IMG/VR virus record: IMGVR_UViG_3300048854_000060
Span: 6,604-70,603 of that record
Direction: 5' to 3' (one strand)
Source: a virus
Taxonomy: Duplodnaviria; Caudoviricetes
DNA length: 64,000 bases
Below, one piece after another: positions 4,620-56,627 of this stretch (positions are counted from its first letter, which is position 1; each line of letters starts with the position of its first letter). A program made the position numbers and the translations under genes. The notes under the pieces are model-generated. The model ran no database searches. It worked only from the letters and a program-made list of their open reading frames with translations, and was not told where the DNA came from.

Positions 4620-4689
4620 GGGAGGTGGCCCGAAAGGGCTGCTTCTCCAACTCGCTCTCATGCACCTCAGTACACGGAATGGAGTCCAT

Positions 4690-19614: not shown

Positions 19615-19641
19615 TCCTTCATTGAGATTCCCTTATGAGGA

Positions 19642-19694
19642 GCTGCGGCAGTCGGTAAGGGGCCGACGTTCGGATCGCGTATCCTAGCCGCAGC
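19642..19694 (-). ncRNA. Candidate three-way-junction RNA element
   Basis: 8-bp closing stem GCTGCGGC/GCCGCAGC plus two inner hairpins. Confidence 0.5.
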
Positions 19695-38104: not shown

Positions 38105-38524
38105 TCATGCCGCACCTCGCGCCAACTCGTCATATCCCTGCGGCGCTGGATCAGACCACTTCACGTCTCGCTCAGCACCGAAGGCGTACATGAGTTCGAC
38201 CAGATCGCTCATCTCGCGAATCGTCATGTTTCGCGTGCGAGCGCCGATCACAACAAAGCCGCCATCGATCCCGGGAACGGCTTTCTGCTTCTTCAGCGCC
38301 GCCGTCAAAACGTCTTTCCACTCTTCGGACGTAAGATGCTGACCGTACCATTCGACTTGACGCGAAACATCGGCCAGCATCGCCCACATCTTGGCGTTCT
38401 GATCGAGCGACCGCGTGCGTGGCTTGATTTCGCACACAAACCCGTCAGGCGCGTTGATGACAGCCCGGCTTGCCATCTGGCGGGCAGTCGGATGAACTAG
38501 GCGGAAGACTTGTTTGTCGCTCAT
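38105..38524 (-). CDS. ninB: NinB/Orf recombination protein
   Basis: RSLDQNAKMWAML.DVS.QV.W.G motif. Confidence 0.88.
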   Translation of the reverse strand: MSDKQVFRLVHPTARQMASRAVINAPDGFVCEIKPRTRSLDQNAKMWAMLADVSRQVEWYGQHLTSEEWKDVLTAALKKQKAVPGIDGGFVVIGARTRNMTIREMSDLVELMYAFGAERDVKWSDPAPQGYDELARGAA

Positions 38525-47744: not shown

Positions 47745-48548
47745 ATGGATATCAATGCACACCGCCGGGCGCGGTTACAGGAATTAGTCGACCAACGAGC
47801 TGCCGGTAACGTCGAGGAATTTGCACGCACGCACCCGCTCGCAGTTGGGGCTACCCGACTGCGGCAGATGCTCAATCCGAATTATCGGAACGGCAGCGGG
47901 TTCAAGGAAGGCGCGGCACGGAAGCTCGAGAAGGCGCTGAATTTGCCCGACCTCTATTTCGACCGTGGCATCGAGAGCGCGTTGGCTGCGGAGCACGAAA
48001 AAAGTATCCCCGATGCCTCGATCAGCGCACCAAATAGTGGCGTGATTGTTAAATCGAATGCGAGCGACATAAGTACTCTGGATGCAGGAGACCTACCAAA
48101 TCCAACATCCGAAGAGTTCGCTTTCGTGCCCCAATTAGATATCGCTGCGGCCTGCGGCAATGGCCGGTTTGAGGATCACGTCGTGGTCAAGGGCGGTCTG
48201 GCGTTCAAGAAATCATTTTTGCGCGAGAAAGGCGTCCCAGAACATGCCGCCAGGATCATCCACGCGTCTGGCGGCAGCATGTCTCCAACGCTTCAGGATG
48301 GGTGCGTGGTGCTTTTGAACCTCGCTGATACCGAGCCGCGAGACGGAAAAGTATTTGCCATTTGTAAGCCTGATGACGGCTTGGTGCTGAAGCGCCTCAT
48401 ATGGGATTTCCACCCCTCCATGGGACGCCAAACGTGGATTTTGAGAAGTGATAACCCTGACAAGATCGCTCATCCAGATAAAGTTTTGCCGCCCGATGAT
48501 CGGACAATGATTGCCGGCCGCGCTGTTTGGAACGACAATCAGCTATGA
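47745..48548 (+). CDS. cI: CI repressor with S24 peptidase domain
   Basis: N-terminal HTH; A.CG.G cleavage region; G.SMSPTL.DG; LVLKRL. Confidence 0.92.
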   Translation: MDINAHRRARLQELVDQRAAGNVEEFARTHPLAVGATRLRQMLNPNYRNGSGFKEGAARKLEKALNLPDLYFDRGIESALAAEHEKSIPDASISAPNSGVIVKSNASDISTLDAGDLPNPTSEEFAFVPQLDIAAACGNGRFEDHVVVKGGLAFKKSFLREKGVPEHAARIIHASGGSMSPTLQDGCVVLLNLADTEPRDGKVFAICKPDDGLVLKRLIWDFHPSMGRQTWILRSDNPDKIAHPDKVLPPDDRTMIAGRAVWNDNQL

Positions 48549-49335: not shown

Positions 49336-49533
49336 TCATTTCTGCCTCTGCGCAAACCCCTCCCGCCACAGCGTGGCACCGACCGACGTCAATAGCGCCA
49401 GGTCATCTCCGTACCGATCCCAATTCTCCGACAGCCAGCCAGCAAAGCCCGCTATCGCTTCGTCTAGCGGTATCTCGGCACGTCCCTCGATGTTCAGACG
49501 TTCAAAGATGGTGATTACATCGTCTGGCGTCAT
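49336..49533 (-). CDS. Small hypothetical protein
   Basis: GGAGG RBS; MTPDDVITIFERLN... Confidence 0.65.
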   Translation of the reverse strand: MTPDDVITIFERLNIEGRAEIPLDEAIAGFAGWLSENWDRYGDDLALLTSVGATLWREGFAQRQK

Positions 49534-49594
49534 GGGGCCTCCGTATTCGACCTTCAGTCTAGAACACGTCGTCGACAAAAAATTTATCGTTCAG

Positions 49595-49636
49595 CGATAG
49601 CTTTTGCTTGCGTTAAACGAGAGCGTTTGCTATTGT
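49595..49636 (+). promoter_or_regulatory. OL: two 18-bp operators with PL
   Basis: CGATAGCTTTTGCTTGCG (49595), CGAGAGCGTTTGCTATTG (49618); TTGCGT-17-TATTGT. Confidence 0.85.
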
Positions 49637-49674
49637 TCACTCATCGCAGCAGCAACTACCTACTGGAGAGCGAG

Positions 49675-49818
49675 ATGAGCCAAGCGACATACAAGCTTTA
49701 CGAGCACACCTGCCGTGACGCCGGTTACTCGCCGCGCATCTCTCCTTGCCGTGCTTGCCTGTCGCAGATGTCGAAGAATGCCGTCGAGTTGGCGCAGCGC
49801 AAAGGCAAGCGGAACTAA
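49675..49818 (+). CDS. 47-aa first PL gene
   Basis: GGAGAG RBS; C...C..C, basic C-terminus. Confidence 0.6.
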   Translation: MSQATYKLYEHTCRDAGYSPRISPCRACLSQMSKNAVELAQRKGKRN

Positions 49819-49863
49819 AGGTCGAAACCGCCGCAGCTCATTGCGATGAAAAGGGGAAGGAAG

Positions 49864-50076
49864 ATGCTGAAAGACATGCACATCGGCGTTAGCCCGCTGA
49901 CTCAAAAGATCGTCGCGTATCGCGGAAAGAACGGGGTTGCTACGTCGAAGAGTGATGACCTGACGAGCGAGGCGGTTTTCTCAGTTGCTCATCTGATTCT
50001 GATGAGCGGCGAGCCGGTGACAACAGTTCTTGACGGTGAAGTGTTTGAACTTCGGATTCACGCTAAAGCGAAATAA
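49864..50076 (+). CDS. Hypothetical protein
   Basis: GGAAG RBS; IGVSPLT..I.A motif. Confidence 0.6.
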   Translation: MLKDMHIGVSPLTQKIVAYRGKNGVATSKSDDLTSEAVFSVAHLILMSGEPVTTVLDGEVFELRIHAKAK

Positions 50077-51340
50077 CTGTCTCCAACGTTAAGGCCTCGA
50101 GCCTTACCGATGCAGATAGCAACGCAGTAGAGGAACACAGGCGCAAGGCGTCGCCTGGTTGGGCAAGTGATCTTTAACCTGACTAGAAGGCATACCAGTA
50201 ATGGCGGGGCCAACGCGCTACCCCGGAAAAGATCGGCGCCTATCAGTGATCCGCCTGACCGACAGCTTCGGTTAAAGAACGGATCACTGATTGATAACCG
50301 CCGCACCTGAGCCGGAGCCAGCATAGCTGGGAGTAGCCGGAGTGGTGCGGCCACGCAGTTTCAGTGGAGCGCCCTAGAGATCCAGTGGGCGCGGCCTGAT
50401 GTGTCGGCAAATCCGGCGTCGGGCGACACGAGTGGTAGCGCACTCAAAATCAAAAACGCATAACGAGCGAACCGGTGTGAACTCCGGTGGCAGGGTTGGT
50501 GAACCTAACCTCCCTGTGATGTTTTCCCGAAGTGGCGATCGGGGTATAGGGCGCTCCACTGAGACTGAATCGAATTAGCCGCCGGCACGCGAAAGCGTGG
50601 GCTTGTTGGGGACGCCCGGTAGCACCCAACCCTCAAGTGAGCACGGGGAATTTTGCTGAACGACGTACAGCAAGTAGCTCATTAGCTCCGTCCGACTTGC
50701 CGCCGTTAGCGGCTCTGAATCCCTGAGCGCCCGGTAGATAGGGCGGCGCAACGCAAAGGTCCACGTCCCATGCGAAGCGCGGCTAAGACGTGGCGCCGGT
50801 GTGATAGCGAAACGCACTGACAGGCCGGAAAGTACGGTCCACCTGGCGCCAATGATGAGCGCGTCGCCGGACGATAGTAACCGGCATGAATTGATGGGTT
50901 GCGGTCGCGCATCCCTTAACCGGTGGCCTGGTAATCAGGGAACCCGCATCTTCCGAGTCTTGCAAGGCGTAGGCCCCGGGCACGGGACAGGAAGTCGAAA
51001 AGCGGAGAAATACGGGCGCAACAGTTGGGCGGCTGACACTCCGGAAAGACGGAGACTGATTTCTAGTGCCCCGGGTTGGACCACGGCGAACTTGTCTATT
51101 CGTGCGGTGGCGCAGTTCGATTCTGCGCAGGGGCGCCAAAGAAATTGCACCCAGGTAGATGGGCATCAAACCCCATCGGTGCGTGCGGCTCGCTGATCGA
51201 CGAGCAATAAAGACTTGATCTCCGCGCCCCTTAAAGTCGGGCTTGGCAAGCTGCGGATGGGGCCACACGGACGGGCGCCTTGCCGGACGCGTCGCCGGAT
51301 ACGTAACCGGCACCACGATTTCTCTTACAAATGCTGATTC
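50077..51340 (+). ncRNA. About 1.3-kb highly structured non-coding region
   Basis: No credible ORF; 16-bp and 12-bp perfect inverted repeats; many hairpins; repeated motifs. Confidence 0.65.
51068..51138 (+). ncRNA. tRNA-like element 1 (71 nt, CCA end, no D-arm)
   Basis: GCCCCGG/CAGGGGC-G-CCA acceptor; CGCAG-TTCGATT-CTGCG T-arm. Confidence 0.6.
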
Positions 51341-51411
51341 TCGCGAGTCGGTAGCGTTAAGGGATATCTGAAGCGGCGTTTATACCGATAAGTACTACTA
51401 ATGGAGTAATC

Positions 51412-51615
51412 ATGGCAACCAAGCAAGCAAAACCTGACTGGCTGAAAGCGAAAGTTCGCACATCGCGCATGACGATGGACATTGATGGCCCGCTCAAGTC
51501 AGCGCTGCCCGACATGATATACATGCTCGACGCAAAGGGACGCGAAGCGGTTATCGCAAAGATGCAAAGGCTTCACGCGGATATTTGCCAGCGCGAAGCA
51601 GAGCAGGCCGCCTAG
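51412..51615 (+). CDS. Hypothetical protein
   Basis: GGAG RBS; ORF track. Confidence 0.6.
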   Translation: MATKQAKPDWLKAKVRTSRMTMDIDGPLKSALPDMIYMLDAKGREAVIAKMQRLHADICQREAEQAA

Positions 51616-51778
51616 GATCCCACCATGCCCGCCCAGCGCGCAGTACACCGCCTGATGACGGTAGCAAAAGAGAAGTTACAGCACCTTGGCTTCGTCTACC
51701 GGATCGACCGGGTAACGCTGACGGGCAGGGTGCTTGATTCGGAGTATGTCCAACTCGATCTGATCGCGTGGTGCTGAT

Positions 51779-51985
51779 ATGGACCTCGACGCCTGGCGAA
51801 ACCGCCCCCTCACAGTCCGCACATTCGAGCATTGCGATAGCTGCTCGACGCTGAAGGAAGACGTCGAGACGCGAACTCACAGGAGTTATTGGCCGACATA
51901 CGAAATCAGCCTGAAATCGTGTGCGCCGTGCTTCGAGGCTGCGAAGCGCGAGGCGGCGGCCGAATTCAACGTAACGATTTGCTAG
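51779..51985 (+). CDS. Small Zn-finger-like protein
   Basis: CDSC...CAPC. Confidence 0.6.
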   Translation: MDLDAWRNRPLTVRTFEHCDSCSTLKEDVETRTHRSYWPTYEISLKSCAPCFEAAKREAAAEFNVTIC

Positions 51986-52104
51986 GAGACTGAAATGGAC
52001 AACAGCATCTATCTGATTTTCGCCGCATCGCTGGTTTTCGTTTCCGCGATCGCGTGGAGTTGCGCTCGTATGGGCAGTGAATCTGACAAGCGGATGGGAA
52101 TGAA

Positions 52105-52299
52105 ATGAAGAAGCAACGAGGTAATTCATCGGCAGGCTTCCTTTTGCTCCTGCTGTTCGTGCTTTCCTTTGCCGGCTGGCTCACGCACATCATTGACTGC
52201 CTAACGCACCAACTTTACGTGCTCCTGCTCGTCGGCGTGTTTGTGTTCCCGGTTGGAATCTTCCATGGGATTGGGGTTTGGTTTGGTCTCTGGGCATAG
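52105..52299 (+). CDS. Small membrane protein
   Basis: Two TM segments; FPVGIFHGIG.W. Confidence 0.65.
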   Translation: MKKQRGNSSAGFLLLLLFVLSFAGWLTHIIDCLTHQLYVLLLVGVFVFPVGIFHGIGVWFGLWA

Positions 52300-52308
52300 G
52301 GAGCAGCA

Positions 52309-52557
52309 ATGAAACGCATCGCATTGATTCTAGTCAGTCTCACCATGCTCTCAGCATGCACCGACGAGACTGCAGCGCGCAAAGCGCTTGAAGCATCTGG
52401 GTTCACTGACGTCAAGCTGACGGGCTATTCGTACTTCGGGTGCGACAAGAACGACACATTCTCGACGGGGTTTGAAGCCCGAGGTCCCCAAGGTCAATTC
52501 ACCGAAGGCGTCGTCTGCTCTGGCTGGATGAAGGGCGCAACGATCCGGTTTGAATAA
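52309..52557 (+). CDS. Lipoprotein
   Basis: LSAC lipobox; C.K.D...TGF.A...G...GVVC. Confidence 0.8.
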   Translation: MKRIALILVSLTMLSACTDETAARKALEASGFTDVKLTGYSYFGCDKNDTFSTGFEARGPQGQFTEGVVCSGWMKGATIRFE

Positions 52558-52832
52558 GGCGACTGACATGCAACCCAAAACCGATCTCGACGACTTTATC
52601 GAATTCACGCGCGCATGGCTCGACGAGCAGCAGAGCAAGCAGGATGCGCTAGATGAGGCGGCATGGCTCCGATTCCGCGCGAAGGTGCTGGGGCCGTTTG
52701 ATTGAATACTAAGCGACGGCCGCTGGAGTTTTGGTTATAAGCCGCAGCGGTGAGACGCCGCGACGAACTCAACGCGACACCTGCCGGGCCTGTAGTGGGC
52801 GCAAGGAGTGGTGCGACAGCCGGAGAGACGGC

Positions 52833-52983
52833 GCCCTGATGGATGCAGATGGCGGAATTGGTAGACGCAGGCGACTAGGGTAAATCGCAAATCGTTGATG
52901 AGCGAGGCGCCAGAACTCGGGATCGTAAAACCCGAAATCGCCGGCAGCTCCGGGTTCGAGTCCCGGTCTGCATCCATCAGGGC
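52833..52983 (+). ncRNA. tRNA-like element 2 (Leu-type D-arm, 63-nt anticodon loop, 17-bp acceptor stem)
   Basis: TGGCGGAATTGGTAGACGC; GGCGA/TCGCC; CCGGG-TTCGAGT-CCCGG. Confidence 0.8.
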
Positions 52984-53061
52984 CAAAGCGGATGTTGCGC
53001 GGAAGGCTGTACGAGTAAGCGCAGTGCAGCGAGTAACCCTGACAAACATTTCGGAGTACGT

Positions 53062-53277
53062 ATGGGACAGCATGCAAACGCCCGTGCCTGGGCAGAGTAC
53101 GAACGCCTTGACCGCAAGAGGCAGGAAGAGTCGTTTGAGGCCGAGCCGCCTTTGACCGAGGAAGAAAAGGTAGCCGCTTGGGATGACTCGTATTGGGAAC
53201 GCCTAGATGCTGTGGCTCGGTACGCAGCACCCGTTCGACATGTGGTGCTGTTCGATGAGATGGGGAGGGCGGGATGA
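53062..53277 (+). CDS. Hypothetical acidic protein
   Basis: GGAG RBS. Confidence 0.55.
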   Translation: MGQHANARAWAEYERLDRKRQEESFEAEPPLTEEEKVAAWDDSYWERLDAVARYAAPVRHVVLFDEMGRAG

Positions 53278-53501
53278 GCGAGATCAAAGACGGTGGGCCG
53301 GCGTTTCCTCGCCCGGCTGGTGACTACAACGGGACGAAGATCGGCAACGGAGCGCAGCGCGGTATCAGCGCGCGCGACTACTTCGCGGCCAAATTCATGC
53401 CGGCAATCTGGCAGAAGCATGAGCCGCTCAATGACTACGACTGCGCATTGCGCGCCTATCAAATGGCTGACGCCATGCTACGCGCCCGAGGTGCCGCATG
53501 A
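53274..53501 (+). CDS. Conserved phage protein (GGPAFP...RDYFAAK family)
   Basis: Characteristic motifs. Confidence 0.75.
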   Translation: MSEIKDGGPAFPRPAGDYNGTKIGNGAQRGISARDYFAAKFMPAIWQKHEPLNDYDCALRAYQMADAMLRARGAA

Positions 53502-55495: not shown

Positions 55496-56002
55496 ATGGA
55501 CAAGCAAACAAAGACTCACTGGAAACGCCTCGTCAACCCGGACTATATCGGCGCGTATGCGTTGAACCCGGACGAGGACTTGACCGTAACAATTGACTAC
55601 GTGCAGCGCGAACAAATCACTGGTACGGGCGGCAAGAAGGAGGAATGCACGGTCGCGCACCTGGTTGGGCACAAGCCCCTCATTCTGAACGCGACGAATT
55701 CAAAGTCGATCAACAAGCTGTATGGCCCGTACATCGAAGACTGGGCCGGCAAGCAGATCACGCTGTACGCCAGCATGACCAAGCTGGCTGGCGATATGGT
55801 CGAGTGCTTGCGGATTCGACCCAATGTGGCGAGGCCGACCAAGCCGAAGATCGCGCCTGATCGGCTAAAGAAAGCTATCGCCTCGATCATCGCCGGGCAA
55901 TTCACGACTGAGCGACTGAGGGCGCAATTCGATTTGACCGATGAGCAGGAAAAGGACGTTGCCTCAGCCATCAAGACCGCCGTGGAGGGCACCAATGCTT
56001 AA
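55496..56002 (+). CDS. Putative recombination/ssDNA-binding partner of exonuclease
   Basis: LILNATN.K.I..LYG..IEDW.GK.ITLY motif; synteny. Confidence 0.55.
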   Translation: MDKQTKTHWKRLVNPDYIGAYALNPDEDLTVTIDYVQREQITGTGGKKEECTVAHLVGHKPLILNATNSKSINKLYGPYIEDWAGKQITLYASMTKLAGDMVECLRIRPNVARPTKPKIAPDRLKKAIASIIAGQFTTERLRAQFDLTDEQEKDVASAIKTAVEGTNA

Positions 56003-56627
56003 GGTTCGCTGCTCATCGCTGAGCAAGATCATGACGGAGCCAAAGAACAAGGGCGAAGTCCTTTCAGTCGGCGCTAAGACCTATGTAGAAGAACTCGCCA
56101 AAGAGTTTGTGTATGGATTCCAGCGCGTTATTACGTCAAAGGAGATGGAGAAGGGCCAACTGGTTGAAAACCACTCCATCGAGTTGATCAACGACGTGTT
56201 TTTCACAAGCTACGTGAAGAACACCGAGCGGCGTGAGAACGAGTGGATTACAGGCGAATGCGACATCTACGTCCCCGGGAAAAAGATCATCGACGTCAAG
56301 TCGCCCTGGTCACTCGCTACGTTCCCTGCCACGGTCTTCGCAGGACAGGACAAGGATTATGAGTGGCAGGGCCGCGGCTACATGATGCTGTGGGACGTTG
56401 ACCAGTTCGAAATCAACTACTGCATGGTCAATACGCCGGACGAGCTGATCCGGTTTGAAGATCCGGGGATGCACTACGTCGACCAGATTGACCCGTCGCT
56501 TCGAATCACTCGCGTGCCATACGAGCGCGATCGCGACCTTGAGGAAAAGATCAAGGTCAAGGTCGAGGCAGCCCGCGACTACTTCAATAAGGTTATCGAG
56601 ACGATCGGCCTTGAACACGCGGCTTAA
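55995..56627 (+). CDS. YqaJ/lambda-exonuclease-like protein
   Basis: G...E, TGECD....IIDVKS, YEWQ..GYM. Confidence 0.85.
   Translation: MLKVRCSSLSKIMTEPKNKGEVLSVGAKTYVEELAKEFVYGFQRVITSKEMEKGQLVENHSIELINDVFFTSYVKNTERRENEWITGECDIYVPGKKIIDVKSPWSLATFPATVFAGQDKDYEWQGRGYMMLWDVDQFEINYCMVNTPDELIRFEDPGMHYVDQIDPSLRITRVPYERDRDLEEKIKVKVEAARDYFNKVIETIGLEHAA

What the first reader, a model, noticed from the sequence alone, without database searches (positions are those of the whole stretch)
50817..52836. Recurrent GACA-[stem-GARAG(T)A-stem] motif, twice directly upstream of tRNA mimics
Seen: CTGACA-GGCCG-GAAAGTA-CGGTC (50817), CTGACA-CTCCG-GAAAGA-CGGAG (51033) and CGACA-GCCG-GAGAGA-CGGC (52814). Stems differ but stay paired while linker and loop are conserved, and each is followed by a strand pairing further upstream. 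Copies 2 and 3 precede the tRNA-like elements by 13 and 0 nt. Inference: a protein-binding or processing signal that works with the tRNA mimics.
Basis: partly seen in the sequence, partly recalled or inferred. Interest (0 to 1): 0.75.

Follow-up and report, generated by a model that had tools for sequence, protein, structure and literature searches.

The report
Pan-phage GAAAGA-loop leader RNA hairpin
The three repeated hairpins are real copies of a small RNA hairpin that many unrelated phages place just ahead of tRNAs, tRNA look-alikes, small RNAs and genes; it is in no RNA catalogue and its job, probably to mark and protect the starts of separate RNA units, is untested.

Summary
Observation confirmed. 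All three hairpins lie where stated, on the + strand, in untranslated parts of one early-left operon. That is far more than chance gives: 4 such hairpins in 128 kb against 1.6 expected, three of them within 2 kb and each preceded by GACA.

In 94 of 122 matches the three unconstrained stem pairs were complementary (about 5% expected). Strand bias was 146 to 2.

A covariance model built only from other phages scores copy 2 at 39 bits, copy 1 at 25 bits (7-nt loop) and copy 3 at 10 bits (a divergent paralogue of copy 2).

A T-arm lies 35-150 nt downstream of the motif in 16 of 108 cases (0.6 expected). Terminators, start codons and further motif copies are also enriched downstream. So it is not a private partner of tRNA mimics.

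Rfam 15 has no match and I found no paper. This scan has already reported the same hairpin on other DNA.

Best reading (about 0.4): a cis-acting RNA boundary signal read by a conserved factor. Main rival: a boxB-like antitermination hairpin.

The parts
50817..50839 (+). Copy 1: CUGACA + stem GGCCG/CGGUC + 7-nt loop GAAAGUA (variant with one extra loop base)
   Evidence: Model R1 gives 24.9 bits, E 3e-5. Homologues in KL4, L006/L015, L028 and L070 have compatible or compensatory stem changes.
51033..51054 (+). Copy 2: canonical member, CUGACA + CUCCG/CGGAG + GAAAGA, then A
   Evidence: Model R1 gives 39.3 bits, E 1.7e-9 over 51032-51057.
52814..52832 (+). Copy 3: divergent member, CGACA + 4-bp stem GCCG/CGGC + GAGAGA
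   Evidence: Model R1 gives only 10.3 bits, E 0.65. It shares about 50 nt with copy 2, flanks included: alignment score 33 against 11.4 +/- 3.7 for shuffles.
51068..51138 (+). tRNA-like element 1 (acceptor, T-arm, encoded CCA, no proper D-arm), 13 nt after copy 2
   Evidence: ARAGORN calls it only at the 80% threshold. No call at default settings or by Rfam.
52833..52983 (+). tRNA-Leu-like element 2 inside a 17-bp outer helix (52833-52849 with 52967-52983), starting directly after copy 3
   Evidence: Sequence reading, fold. The T-arm is picked up by relaxed ARAGORN.
50786..50887 (+). Conserved module holding copy 1: outer stem GACGU/GCGUC, inner stem, GNRA-type hairpin, copy 1, then 'hairpin B' (GCCGG-A...GUAA-CCGGC-A)
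   Evidence: 89-94% identical over about 100-170 nt in L006/L015 and L028. RNAalifold shows compensatory pairs in copy 1 and hairpin B.
50861..50886 (+). Hairpin B, first copy (second conserved hairpin type, 5' boundary of the insertion)
   Evidence: Pattern found in 23 IMG/VR loci. G-C to C-G and C-G to G-C swaps in L028 and L070.
51289..51312 (+). Hairpin B, second copy (3' boundary of the insertion)
   Evidence: In L070 a single hairpin B joins directly to the sequence that follows 51312 here.
50887..51288 (+). Swappable segment with copy 2 and tRNA-like 1, flanked by the two hairpin B copies
   Evidence: Absent from L070, replaced by 235 unrelated nt in L028.
50168..50180 (+). boxA-like word UGAUCUUUAACCU near the start of the untranslated RNA
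   Evidence: Three mismatches to the rrn boxA, which is chance level on its own. It is conserved as TGATCTTTAACAA in L028 and similar in an E. coli prophage leader.

Best explanation
The three hairpins are one canonical and two variant copies of a small RNA motif: (C)UGAC-R, a 5-bp G+C-rich stem closed by G-C, a GAAAGA loop, then usually A. Phages and prophages of many hosts carry it on the sense strand of their transcripts. In this phage it is transcribed as part of the long untranslated leader and spacers of the early-left operon. I read it as a cis-acting RNA boundary signal placed at the 5' edge of RNA units that fold or are used on their own. Here those units are two tRNA-like RNAs in swappable cassettes. 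Elsewhere they are true tRNAs, long-helix domains, terminator-ended sRNA-like units and the short 5' UTRs of genes. The conserved single-stranded GAC-R and the GA-rich loop would be read by a conserved factor, most likely a host ribonuclease or RNA-binding protein. That factor would cut or cap there, so the downstream unit gets a defined, hairpin-guarded 5' end. Shown: the motif, its pairing, its strand, its spread and what lies next to it. Inferred: the factor, the cleavage or protection, and the benefit.
For: Real and non-random in the window. Family membership by a model built only from other phages: 39.3, 24.9 and 10.3 bits. Pairing: 94 of 122 IMG/VR matches have all three unconstrained pairs complementary, against about 5% expected. 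Of those pair cells 81% are Watson-Crick and 8% G-U, across 41 different stem variants. RNA sense strand: 146 motifs on the gene strand against 2 on the other. On the inner pairs G-U outnumbers A-C 22 to 7. Local, per-unit placement: a T-arm follows in 16 of 108 cases (0.6 expected), a terminator in 10 (0.6), another copy in 13 (0.9), SD plus start codon in 28 (11.7). tRNA starts mostly lie 5-8 nt after the stem, also between successive tRNAs. Start codons peak at 20-39 nt. It is not a promoter: nothing upstream is conserved, and it lies 125-215 nt downstream of the predicted -35/-10 promoter hexamers that I read by eye in Simangalove and KL4. No phage protein family is shared by carriers, which points to a host factor or an RNA-only role. 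Rare in cells: a strong hit in 2 of 151 sampled Gammaproteobacteria genomes, one in a prophage-like immunity region.
Against: No known ribonuclease recognises GAC-R plus a GAAAGA hairpin. A purely protective hairpin would not need a fixed loop. Copy 1 sits inside a three-way junction of a larger module rather than before a unit. About 46% of family members have none of the four scored neighbours within reach. The IMG/VR pattern fixed the flank, the loop and two pairs, so the family's real variability is under-sampled.
Confidence: 0.4

Rival explanations
1. A boxB-like antitermination hairpin. The GA-rich loop folds like a GNRA loop with extra bases and recruits a factor (a phage N-like protein, or a host Nus factor or RNA polymerase as with HK022 put). 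That keeps RNA polymerase going through the untranslated, structured and terminator-bearing early RNA.
For: Same size and shape as lambda boxB: a 5-bp stem with a GAAAA or GAAGA loop (from my knowledge; PMC12550061, read, describes GNRA-like boxB penta- and hexaloops). In temperate phages it sits where nutL and nutR would. One position is after the cI-like repressor in the early-left leader (this window; KL4; an E. coli e14-like prophage; 15 loci). The other is in arrays between a Cro/cII-like gene and the replication genes. Terminators are enriched 17-fold just downstream. A boxA-like word heads the leader.
Against: No conserved boxA-like word lies next to the hairpin. The first ORFs downstream show no recurrent Arg-rich N-terminus, and no protein family is shared. 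Copies repeat before each tRNA at a fixed 5-8 nt, which a processive modification of polymerase would not need. Many carriers have it before capsid or scaffold genes or inside tRNA clusters. In this window no copy is seen in the rightward early operon.
Confidence: 0.22
2. An RNA-only folding device. A fast-folding hairpin insulates the downstream module from upstream sequence, and its GNRA-like loop docks on the neighbouring helix (tRNA acceptor stem or long stem).
For: It directly abuts long helices: 0 nt before the 17-bp helix here, before an 18-bp helix in L025 and before a long stem in Simangalove. It lies 5-8 nt from tRNA acceptor stems. No partner protein was found.
Against: Many copies precede plain 5' UTRs with no helix to dock on. 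The conserved single-stranded GAC-R and the trailing A are not explained. No receptor motif was identified.
Confidence: 0.15
3. A DNA-level element. It would be a REP-like hairpin with a conserved 5' tetranucleotide, or a short shared linker at which phage modules recombine, with no role as RNA.
For: The segments carrying copies 2 and 3 are swapped or absent in close relatives. Hairpin B flanks one such segment as a direct repeat. The layout, a tetranucleotide plus a palindrome, recalls REP elements (from my knowledge).
Against: The strong bias to the transcribed sense strand (146 to 2) and the G-U pairs fit RNA. Spacing to tRNA starts and start codons is fixed. Arm sequences vary freely while the loop is fixed. 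No transposase or nuclease family is shared.
Confidence: 0.08

Closest known systems
Lambda-type nut-site boxB hairpin (lambda GAAAA/GAAGA, P22 GACAA, phi21 CUAACC loops)
   Same: A 5-bp stem with a purine-rich loop that begins with G and ends with A. The stem varies while the loop is fixed. It lies on early-operon RNA next to the immunity region in temperate phages, sometimes ahead of terminators.
   Different: The loop is six bases (seven in copy 1). The conserved flank is GAC-R touching the stem, not a boxA 8-10 nt upstream. No N-like protein was found. It occurs in several copies per operon, before tRNAs and late genes, and in phages well outside the lambdoid group.
HK022 put RNA
   Same: A cis-acting early-leader RNA that needs no phage protein. 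It sits at the same map positions as nutL and nutR.
   Different: put is about 70 nt with two long stem-loops. Regex searches of the HK022 immunity region for hairpin-B module words found no likeness; the GAAAGA hairpin itself was not searched for there. The motif here is 22-26 nt.
Theta (minimal HDV-like) ribozymes at phage tRNA 3' ends
   Same: A small phage RNA element that keeps company with tRNA genes and would serve RNA processing.
   Different: Theta ribozymes lie downstream of tRNAs and are nested pseudoknots of 50 nt or more. This is a simple hairpin upstream of tRNAs, too small to be a known ribozyme.
REP elements (5' tetranucleotide plus imperfect palindrome, acted on by RAYT, stabilising mRNA)
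   Same: A short intergenic palindrome with a fixed 5' tetranucleotide. It is transcribed and could block exonucleases.
   Different: REPs are cellular, have variable loops and come in hundreds per genome. This motif has a fixed loop, comes in 1-4 copies per 10 kb of phage DNA, and is rare in the cellular genomes sampled.

Membership tests
   Copy 2: 39.3 bits, E 1.7e-9. Copy 1: 24.9 bits, E 3e-5. Copy 3: only 10.3 bits, E 0.65.
   Copies 1 and 2 have CUGACA plus 5 bp. Copy 3 has CGACA plus 4 bp.
   Copy 2 meets both. Copy 3 has GAGAGA, also seen in L142 and L161, and is followed by G. Copy 1 has GAAAGUA followed by C. The homologues of copy 1 have GAAAGCA, GAAAGGA and GAAAGAA.
   All three copies are on the + strand of the early-left operon. 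Copies 2 and 3 precede tRNA-like elements.
Lambda-type nut site | boxA word a few bases upstream of the hairpin | tested here: not met
   No conserved position upstream of CUGAC in 80 contexts. The only boxA-like word here is 650 nt upstream of copy 1.
Lambda-type nut site | Phage N-type protein with an arginine-rich N-terminus | tested here: inconclusive
   No recurrent Arg-rich first ORF and no shared family near the motif. Whole genomes of the carriers were not searched.
Lambda-type nut site | One site in each of the two early operons | tested here: not met
   Three copies in the leftward operon. No credible copy on the - strand early operon.
ANTAR dual-hexaloop target | Two hairpins with hexaloops carrying A at position 1 and G at position 4, the second overlapping a terminator | tested here: not met
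   The loop is GAAAGA (G1, A4). Terminators lie 15-25 nt away and do not overlap. The ANTAR consensus is taken from my own knowledge; of PMC8934654 only the abstract listed was seen.
Intrinsic terminator | U-tract directly after the stem | tested here: not met
   Position +1 is A in 78% of cases. The next positions are only mildly T-rich, 35-46%.
Any Rfam 15 family | Match at gathering score, or at E up to 10 in the region | tested here: not met
   Nothing in 49500-53500. Nothing at the motif in 26 carrier loci.
tRNA (for the two neighbouring elements) | Called by ARAGORN at default settings or by Rfam RF00005 | tested here: not met
   No call. Called only with ARAGORN thresholds lowered to 80%.

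The most novel reading that the evidence does not exclude
The hairpin is the recognition mark of a general 'punctuation' system for phage RNA. One conserved cellular factor, or the RNA itself, would use it across bacterial phyla to define the 5' ends of tRNAs, tRNA mimics, small RNAs and mRNAs cut out of long phage transcripts. A second hairpin type ('hairpin B') would serve as an interchangeable alternative.
Probability: 0.25. Interest if true: 0.8.

Novelty: new variant of a known kind. Interest (0 to 1): 0.6.

Why it matters
A 22-26-nt RNA hairpin with a fixed loop and flank is shared by phages of Burkholderia, Ralstonia, Stenotrophomonas, Xanthomonas, Erwinia, Bacteroides, Rhodobacter, Bacillus and E. 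coli prophages, and it is absent from Rfam. That implies a common interaction between phage RNA and some conserved cellular machinery that has not been described. Knowing the partner would explain how phages organise long untranslated early RNAs and tRNA clusters. It would also help annotate phage tRNA-like genes and small RNAs, and might yield a compact, portable RNA part for processing or stability. For this window, it turns a local curiosity into three members of that family, two of them on cassettes with tRNA mimics that are exchanged between close relatives.

Tried and rejected
1. Known RNA families. Rfam at gathering score and at E up to 10 gave nothing.
2. Hammerhead, hairpin-ribozyme and K-turn or C/D-box readings of CUGA and GAUGA words. 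By eye the cores do not fit (G8 and A9 are missing, and no GAAA follows the stem), and KL4 lacks the GAUGAG word.
3. Promoter or transcript-start reading. No conserved -10 or -35 upstream, and the motif lies 125-215 nt downstream of the -35/-10 hexamers I read by eye.
4. The UGA of CUGAC as a gene's stop codon (read-through or frameshift site). The frame ending at it is not open upstream.
5. N-like partner. No Arg-rich first ORF and no shared protein family.
6. HK022 put. Regex searches of the HK022 immunity region for hairpin-B module words showed no likeness.
7. Literature by sequence words and by 'GAAAGA hairpin phage tRNA'. Nothing relevant.
8. A scan of bacterial genomes with the hairpin-B pattern. 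Mostly chance hits inside genes; true modules only in two Pectobacteriaceae prophages.
10. Relatives by whole-genome kinship.
11. The model R1 hit at 38456-38488. It is antisense to a coding region and has a 13-nt loop, so I take it as chance.
12. Two 'ssRNA' records were among weak BLAST hits but I could not inspect them. Small IMG/VR contigs with the motif showed no long ORF of replicase size in their ORF lists; they were not searched against protein families.
Full report
**What is in the window.** The window is most of a 70.6-kb IMG/VR virus record. A cI-like repressor gene (47745-48548, +) and its terminator (about 49230) are followed by a + strand early operon. That operon runs through small ORFs to an exonuclease (55941-56627) and a methyltransferase. 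Inside it, 50077-51411 and 52706-53061 have no credible ORF.

Hairpins of this form occur 4 times on both strands of the window against 1.6 expected. Three of the four are these copies: all + strand, all preceded by GACA, all within 2 kb. A looser definition gives 7 against 1.3.

Copy 2 lies 13 nt before a 71-nt element with an acceptor stem, a T-arm and an encoded CCA. Copy 3 abuts a 17-bp helix that encloses a tRNA-Leu-like D-arm and T-arm. Neither element is called a tRNA by ARAGORN at default settings or by Rfam. Copies 2 and 3 are paralogous over about 50 nt, including the flank GGGCGCAA..AGU.

**Close relatives.** Two IMG/VR contigs (L027, L028) and a third (L070) are mosaic relatives. 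A roughly 100-nt module around copy 1 (50786-50887) is conserved in L028, L070 and L006/L015, and more loosely in Burkholderia phage KL4. In KL4 it lies in the leader between the repressor gene and the early operon.

In these homologues the copy-1 stem changes compatibly: GGCCG/CGGUC, GACCG/CGGUU, GGUCG/CGGCC, GGCCG/CGGCC and GGACCG/CGGUCC. The loop stays GAAAGNA.

Next to copy 1 lies a second conserved hairpin, 'hairpin B' (GCCGG-A...GUA-A/C-CCGGC-A). It shows G-C to C-G and C-G to G-C swaps, occurs twice here (50861, 51289), and is found in 23 other IMG/VR loci.

In L070 a single hairpin B is joined directly to the sequence that here follows 51312. So 50887-51288, which carries copy 2 and tRNA-like 1, is an inserted segment bracketed by hairpin B repeats. 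L028 has unrelated RNA in its place, and also in place of the copy 3 plus tRNA-like 2 segment.

**The motif is pan-phage.** One L025 hairpin (CCCUGACG-GCCUG-GAAAGA-CAGGC, followed by an 18-bp helix) prompted a scan of IMG/VR with CTGACRNNNCGGARAGACG.

- The three stem pairs left free by the pattern are all complementary in 94 of 122 matches; chance gives about 5%.
- Over 109 non-redundant instances there are 41 stem variants. Of the pair cells, 81% are Watson-Crick and 8% G-U.
- Every position outside CUGAC-R, stem, GAAAGA, stem, A (78%) is unconserved, so no promoter or boxA is attached.
- Relaxed copies lie 146 times on the same strand as the anchor and twice on the other (67). That strand is the sense strand of the downstream genes.
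- GenBank phages of Ralstonia (36 records), Stenotrophomonas, Xanthomonas, Erwinia, Rhodobacter, Bacteroides and Bacillus carry it in unannotated gaps. So does an E. coli e14-like prophage.
- Only 2 of 151 sampled Gammaproteobacteria genomes have a strong hit, one of them beside Cro/cI-like genes.
- Rfam has nothing at the motif. I found no paper.

A covariance model built from 82 members, none from this window, scores copy 2 at 39.3 bits, copy 1 at 24.9 bits and copy 3 at 10.3 bits. The 100% pairing reported is circular, because that set was chosen for paired stems. The unbiased figure is that.

**What lies next to it.** Counts are for 108 non-redundant instances, compared with random places in the same loci.

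| Downstream neighbour | Observed | Expected |
|---|---|---|
| T-arm 35-150 nt downstream | 16 | 0.6 |
| Intrinsic terminator within 70 nt | 10 | 0.6 |
| Another copy of the motif | 13 | 0.9 |
| SD plus start codon within 50 nt | 28 | 11.7 |

- tRNA starts lie mostly 5-8 nt after the stem, also between successive tRNAs of a cluster.
- Several of the tRNAs are tRNA-Leu-like genes with long insertions, with Rfam matches 104-154 nt long. They resemble tRNA-like 2 here.
- Start codons peak 20-39 nt after the stem.
- In temperate phages the motif lies in the early-left leader after a cI-like gene (15 loci). It also occurs in arrays of 3-4 between a Cro/cII-like gene and the replication genes.
- In Ralstonia phage Simangalove three copies lie in one 540-nt leader, the first about 125 nt downstream of -35/-10 promoter hexamers that I read by eye.
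- The UGA inside CUGAC is not a stop codon of upstream genes.
- No protein family is shared by the carriers, and the first ORFs downstream have no recurrent Arg-rich N-terminus.

**Reading.** The fixed loop and flank with a freely covarying stem, the sense-strand bias and the G-U pairs make this an RNA signal. The per-unit placement at fixed short distances from tRNA starts and start codons argues for a local role at the 5' edge of RNA units. A once-per-operon change of RNA polymerase would not need that. I therefore prefer a boundary (processing or protection) signal read by a conserved host factor, at about 0.4.

The boxB-like antitermination reading (about 0.22) is supported by the shape, the nut-like map positions and the terminators downstream. 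It fails the tests for an adjacent boxA, an N-like protein and a site in both early operons. An RNA-only folding or docking role (0.15) and a DNA-level element (0.08) remain possible.

**Relation to earlier notes of this scan.** After I had found the family, a look-up showed that other agents had reported the same hairpin on other DNA (e1-5347100, e1-5319112, e1-5714857, e1-4387279). My results agree with theirs. The notes are not independent evidence.

Another note (e1-3259792) describes a boxA-led structured early RNA that shares words with the copy-1 module. I found a boxA-like word at 50168 that is conserved in L028.

New here, as far as I can tell:
- The 7-nt-loop variant embedded in a conserved module with hairpin B.
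- The cassette nature of the two hairpin plus tRNA-mimic units.
- A hint that hairpin B and the GAAAGA hairpin occupy equivalent places. An E. coli prophage has the GAAAGA hairpin where Pectobacteriaceae prophages have hairpin B, each followed by the same CACAACAGGUAAGAGC.

Noticed in passing
window 50861-50886 and 51289-51312; L003-L025, L061-L069: A second conserved hairpin, 'hairpin B'. A short stem G(G/A)CGC...GCGUC abuts GCCGG-A-(4-5-nt cap ending in G)-U-A(A/C)-CCGGC-A. It occurs in more than 25 phage contigs, often as CACCAGGGCA...CGGGCGC upstream, 20-60 nt before a gene start or small terminator. It covaries in L028 and L070. Not in Rfam.
   Followed up: partly
window 50887-51288 compared with L070 and L028:4675-4910: The segment with copy 2 and tRNA-like 1 is bracketed by direct repeats of hairpin B. 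It is absent from one close relative and replaced in another. The copy 3 plus tRNA-like 2 segment (52727-53109) is likewise replaced in L028 by RNA with two other T-arms.
   Followed up: partly
L193:5018-5043 compared with L011:9670-9695 and L051: An E. coli e14-like prophage has the GAAAGA hairpin where Pectobacteriaceae prophages have hairpin B. Both are followed by CACAACAGGTAAGAGC. This suggests the two hairpin types are interchangeable.
   Followed up: partly
L139:6983-7060, L125, L133, L126, L193:5260-5330: After some motif copies comes AUUGCUGUGUGUAGUCUUGGC plus a terminator hairpin. I did not compare it with an RprA sequence here.
   Followed up: no
L091:8504-8607, L166:291-416, L171:4099-4252: tRNA-Leu-like genes with long insertions (Rfam tRNA matches 104-154 nt long) lie a few bases after the motif in unrelated phages. 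They are the same kind of element as tRNA-like 2 of this window.
   Followed up: no
window 50168-50180; L028:3972-3984; L193 about 4643-4658: The boxA-like word (GUGAUCUUUAAC) near the start of the early-left leader recurs in a relative and, in similar form, in the E. coli prophage leader.
   Followed up: partly
window 19630-19694 (-): Rfam int-alpA RNA (RF02996), 48.1 bits. It is the only Rfam match in the window.
   Followed up: no
L027:5357-5436: In a relative, ARAGORN calls a tRNA-Ile 150 nt after the homologue of the 70-aa gene. That is the position where this window starts its 1.3-kb untranslated RNA.
   Followed up: no
L077, L085, L087, L099, L100, L109, L172: Two or three tandem motif copies, 24-36 nt apart, end directly at the Shine-Dalgarno sequence. 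The genes that follow have acidic N-termini and lie directly ahead of a large ORF; I guess they are scaffold and capsid genes, but no family search was run.
   Followed up: no
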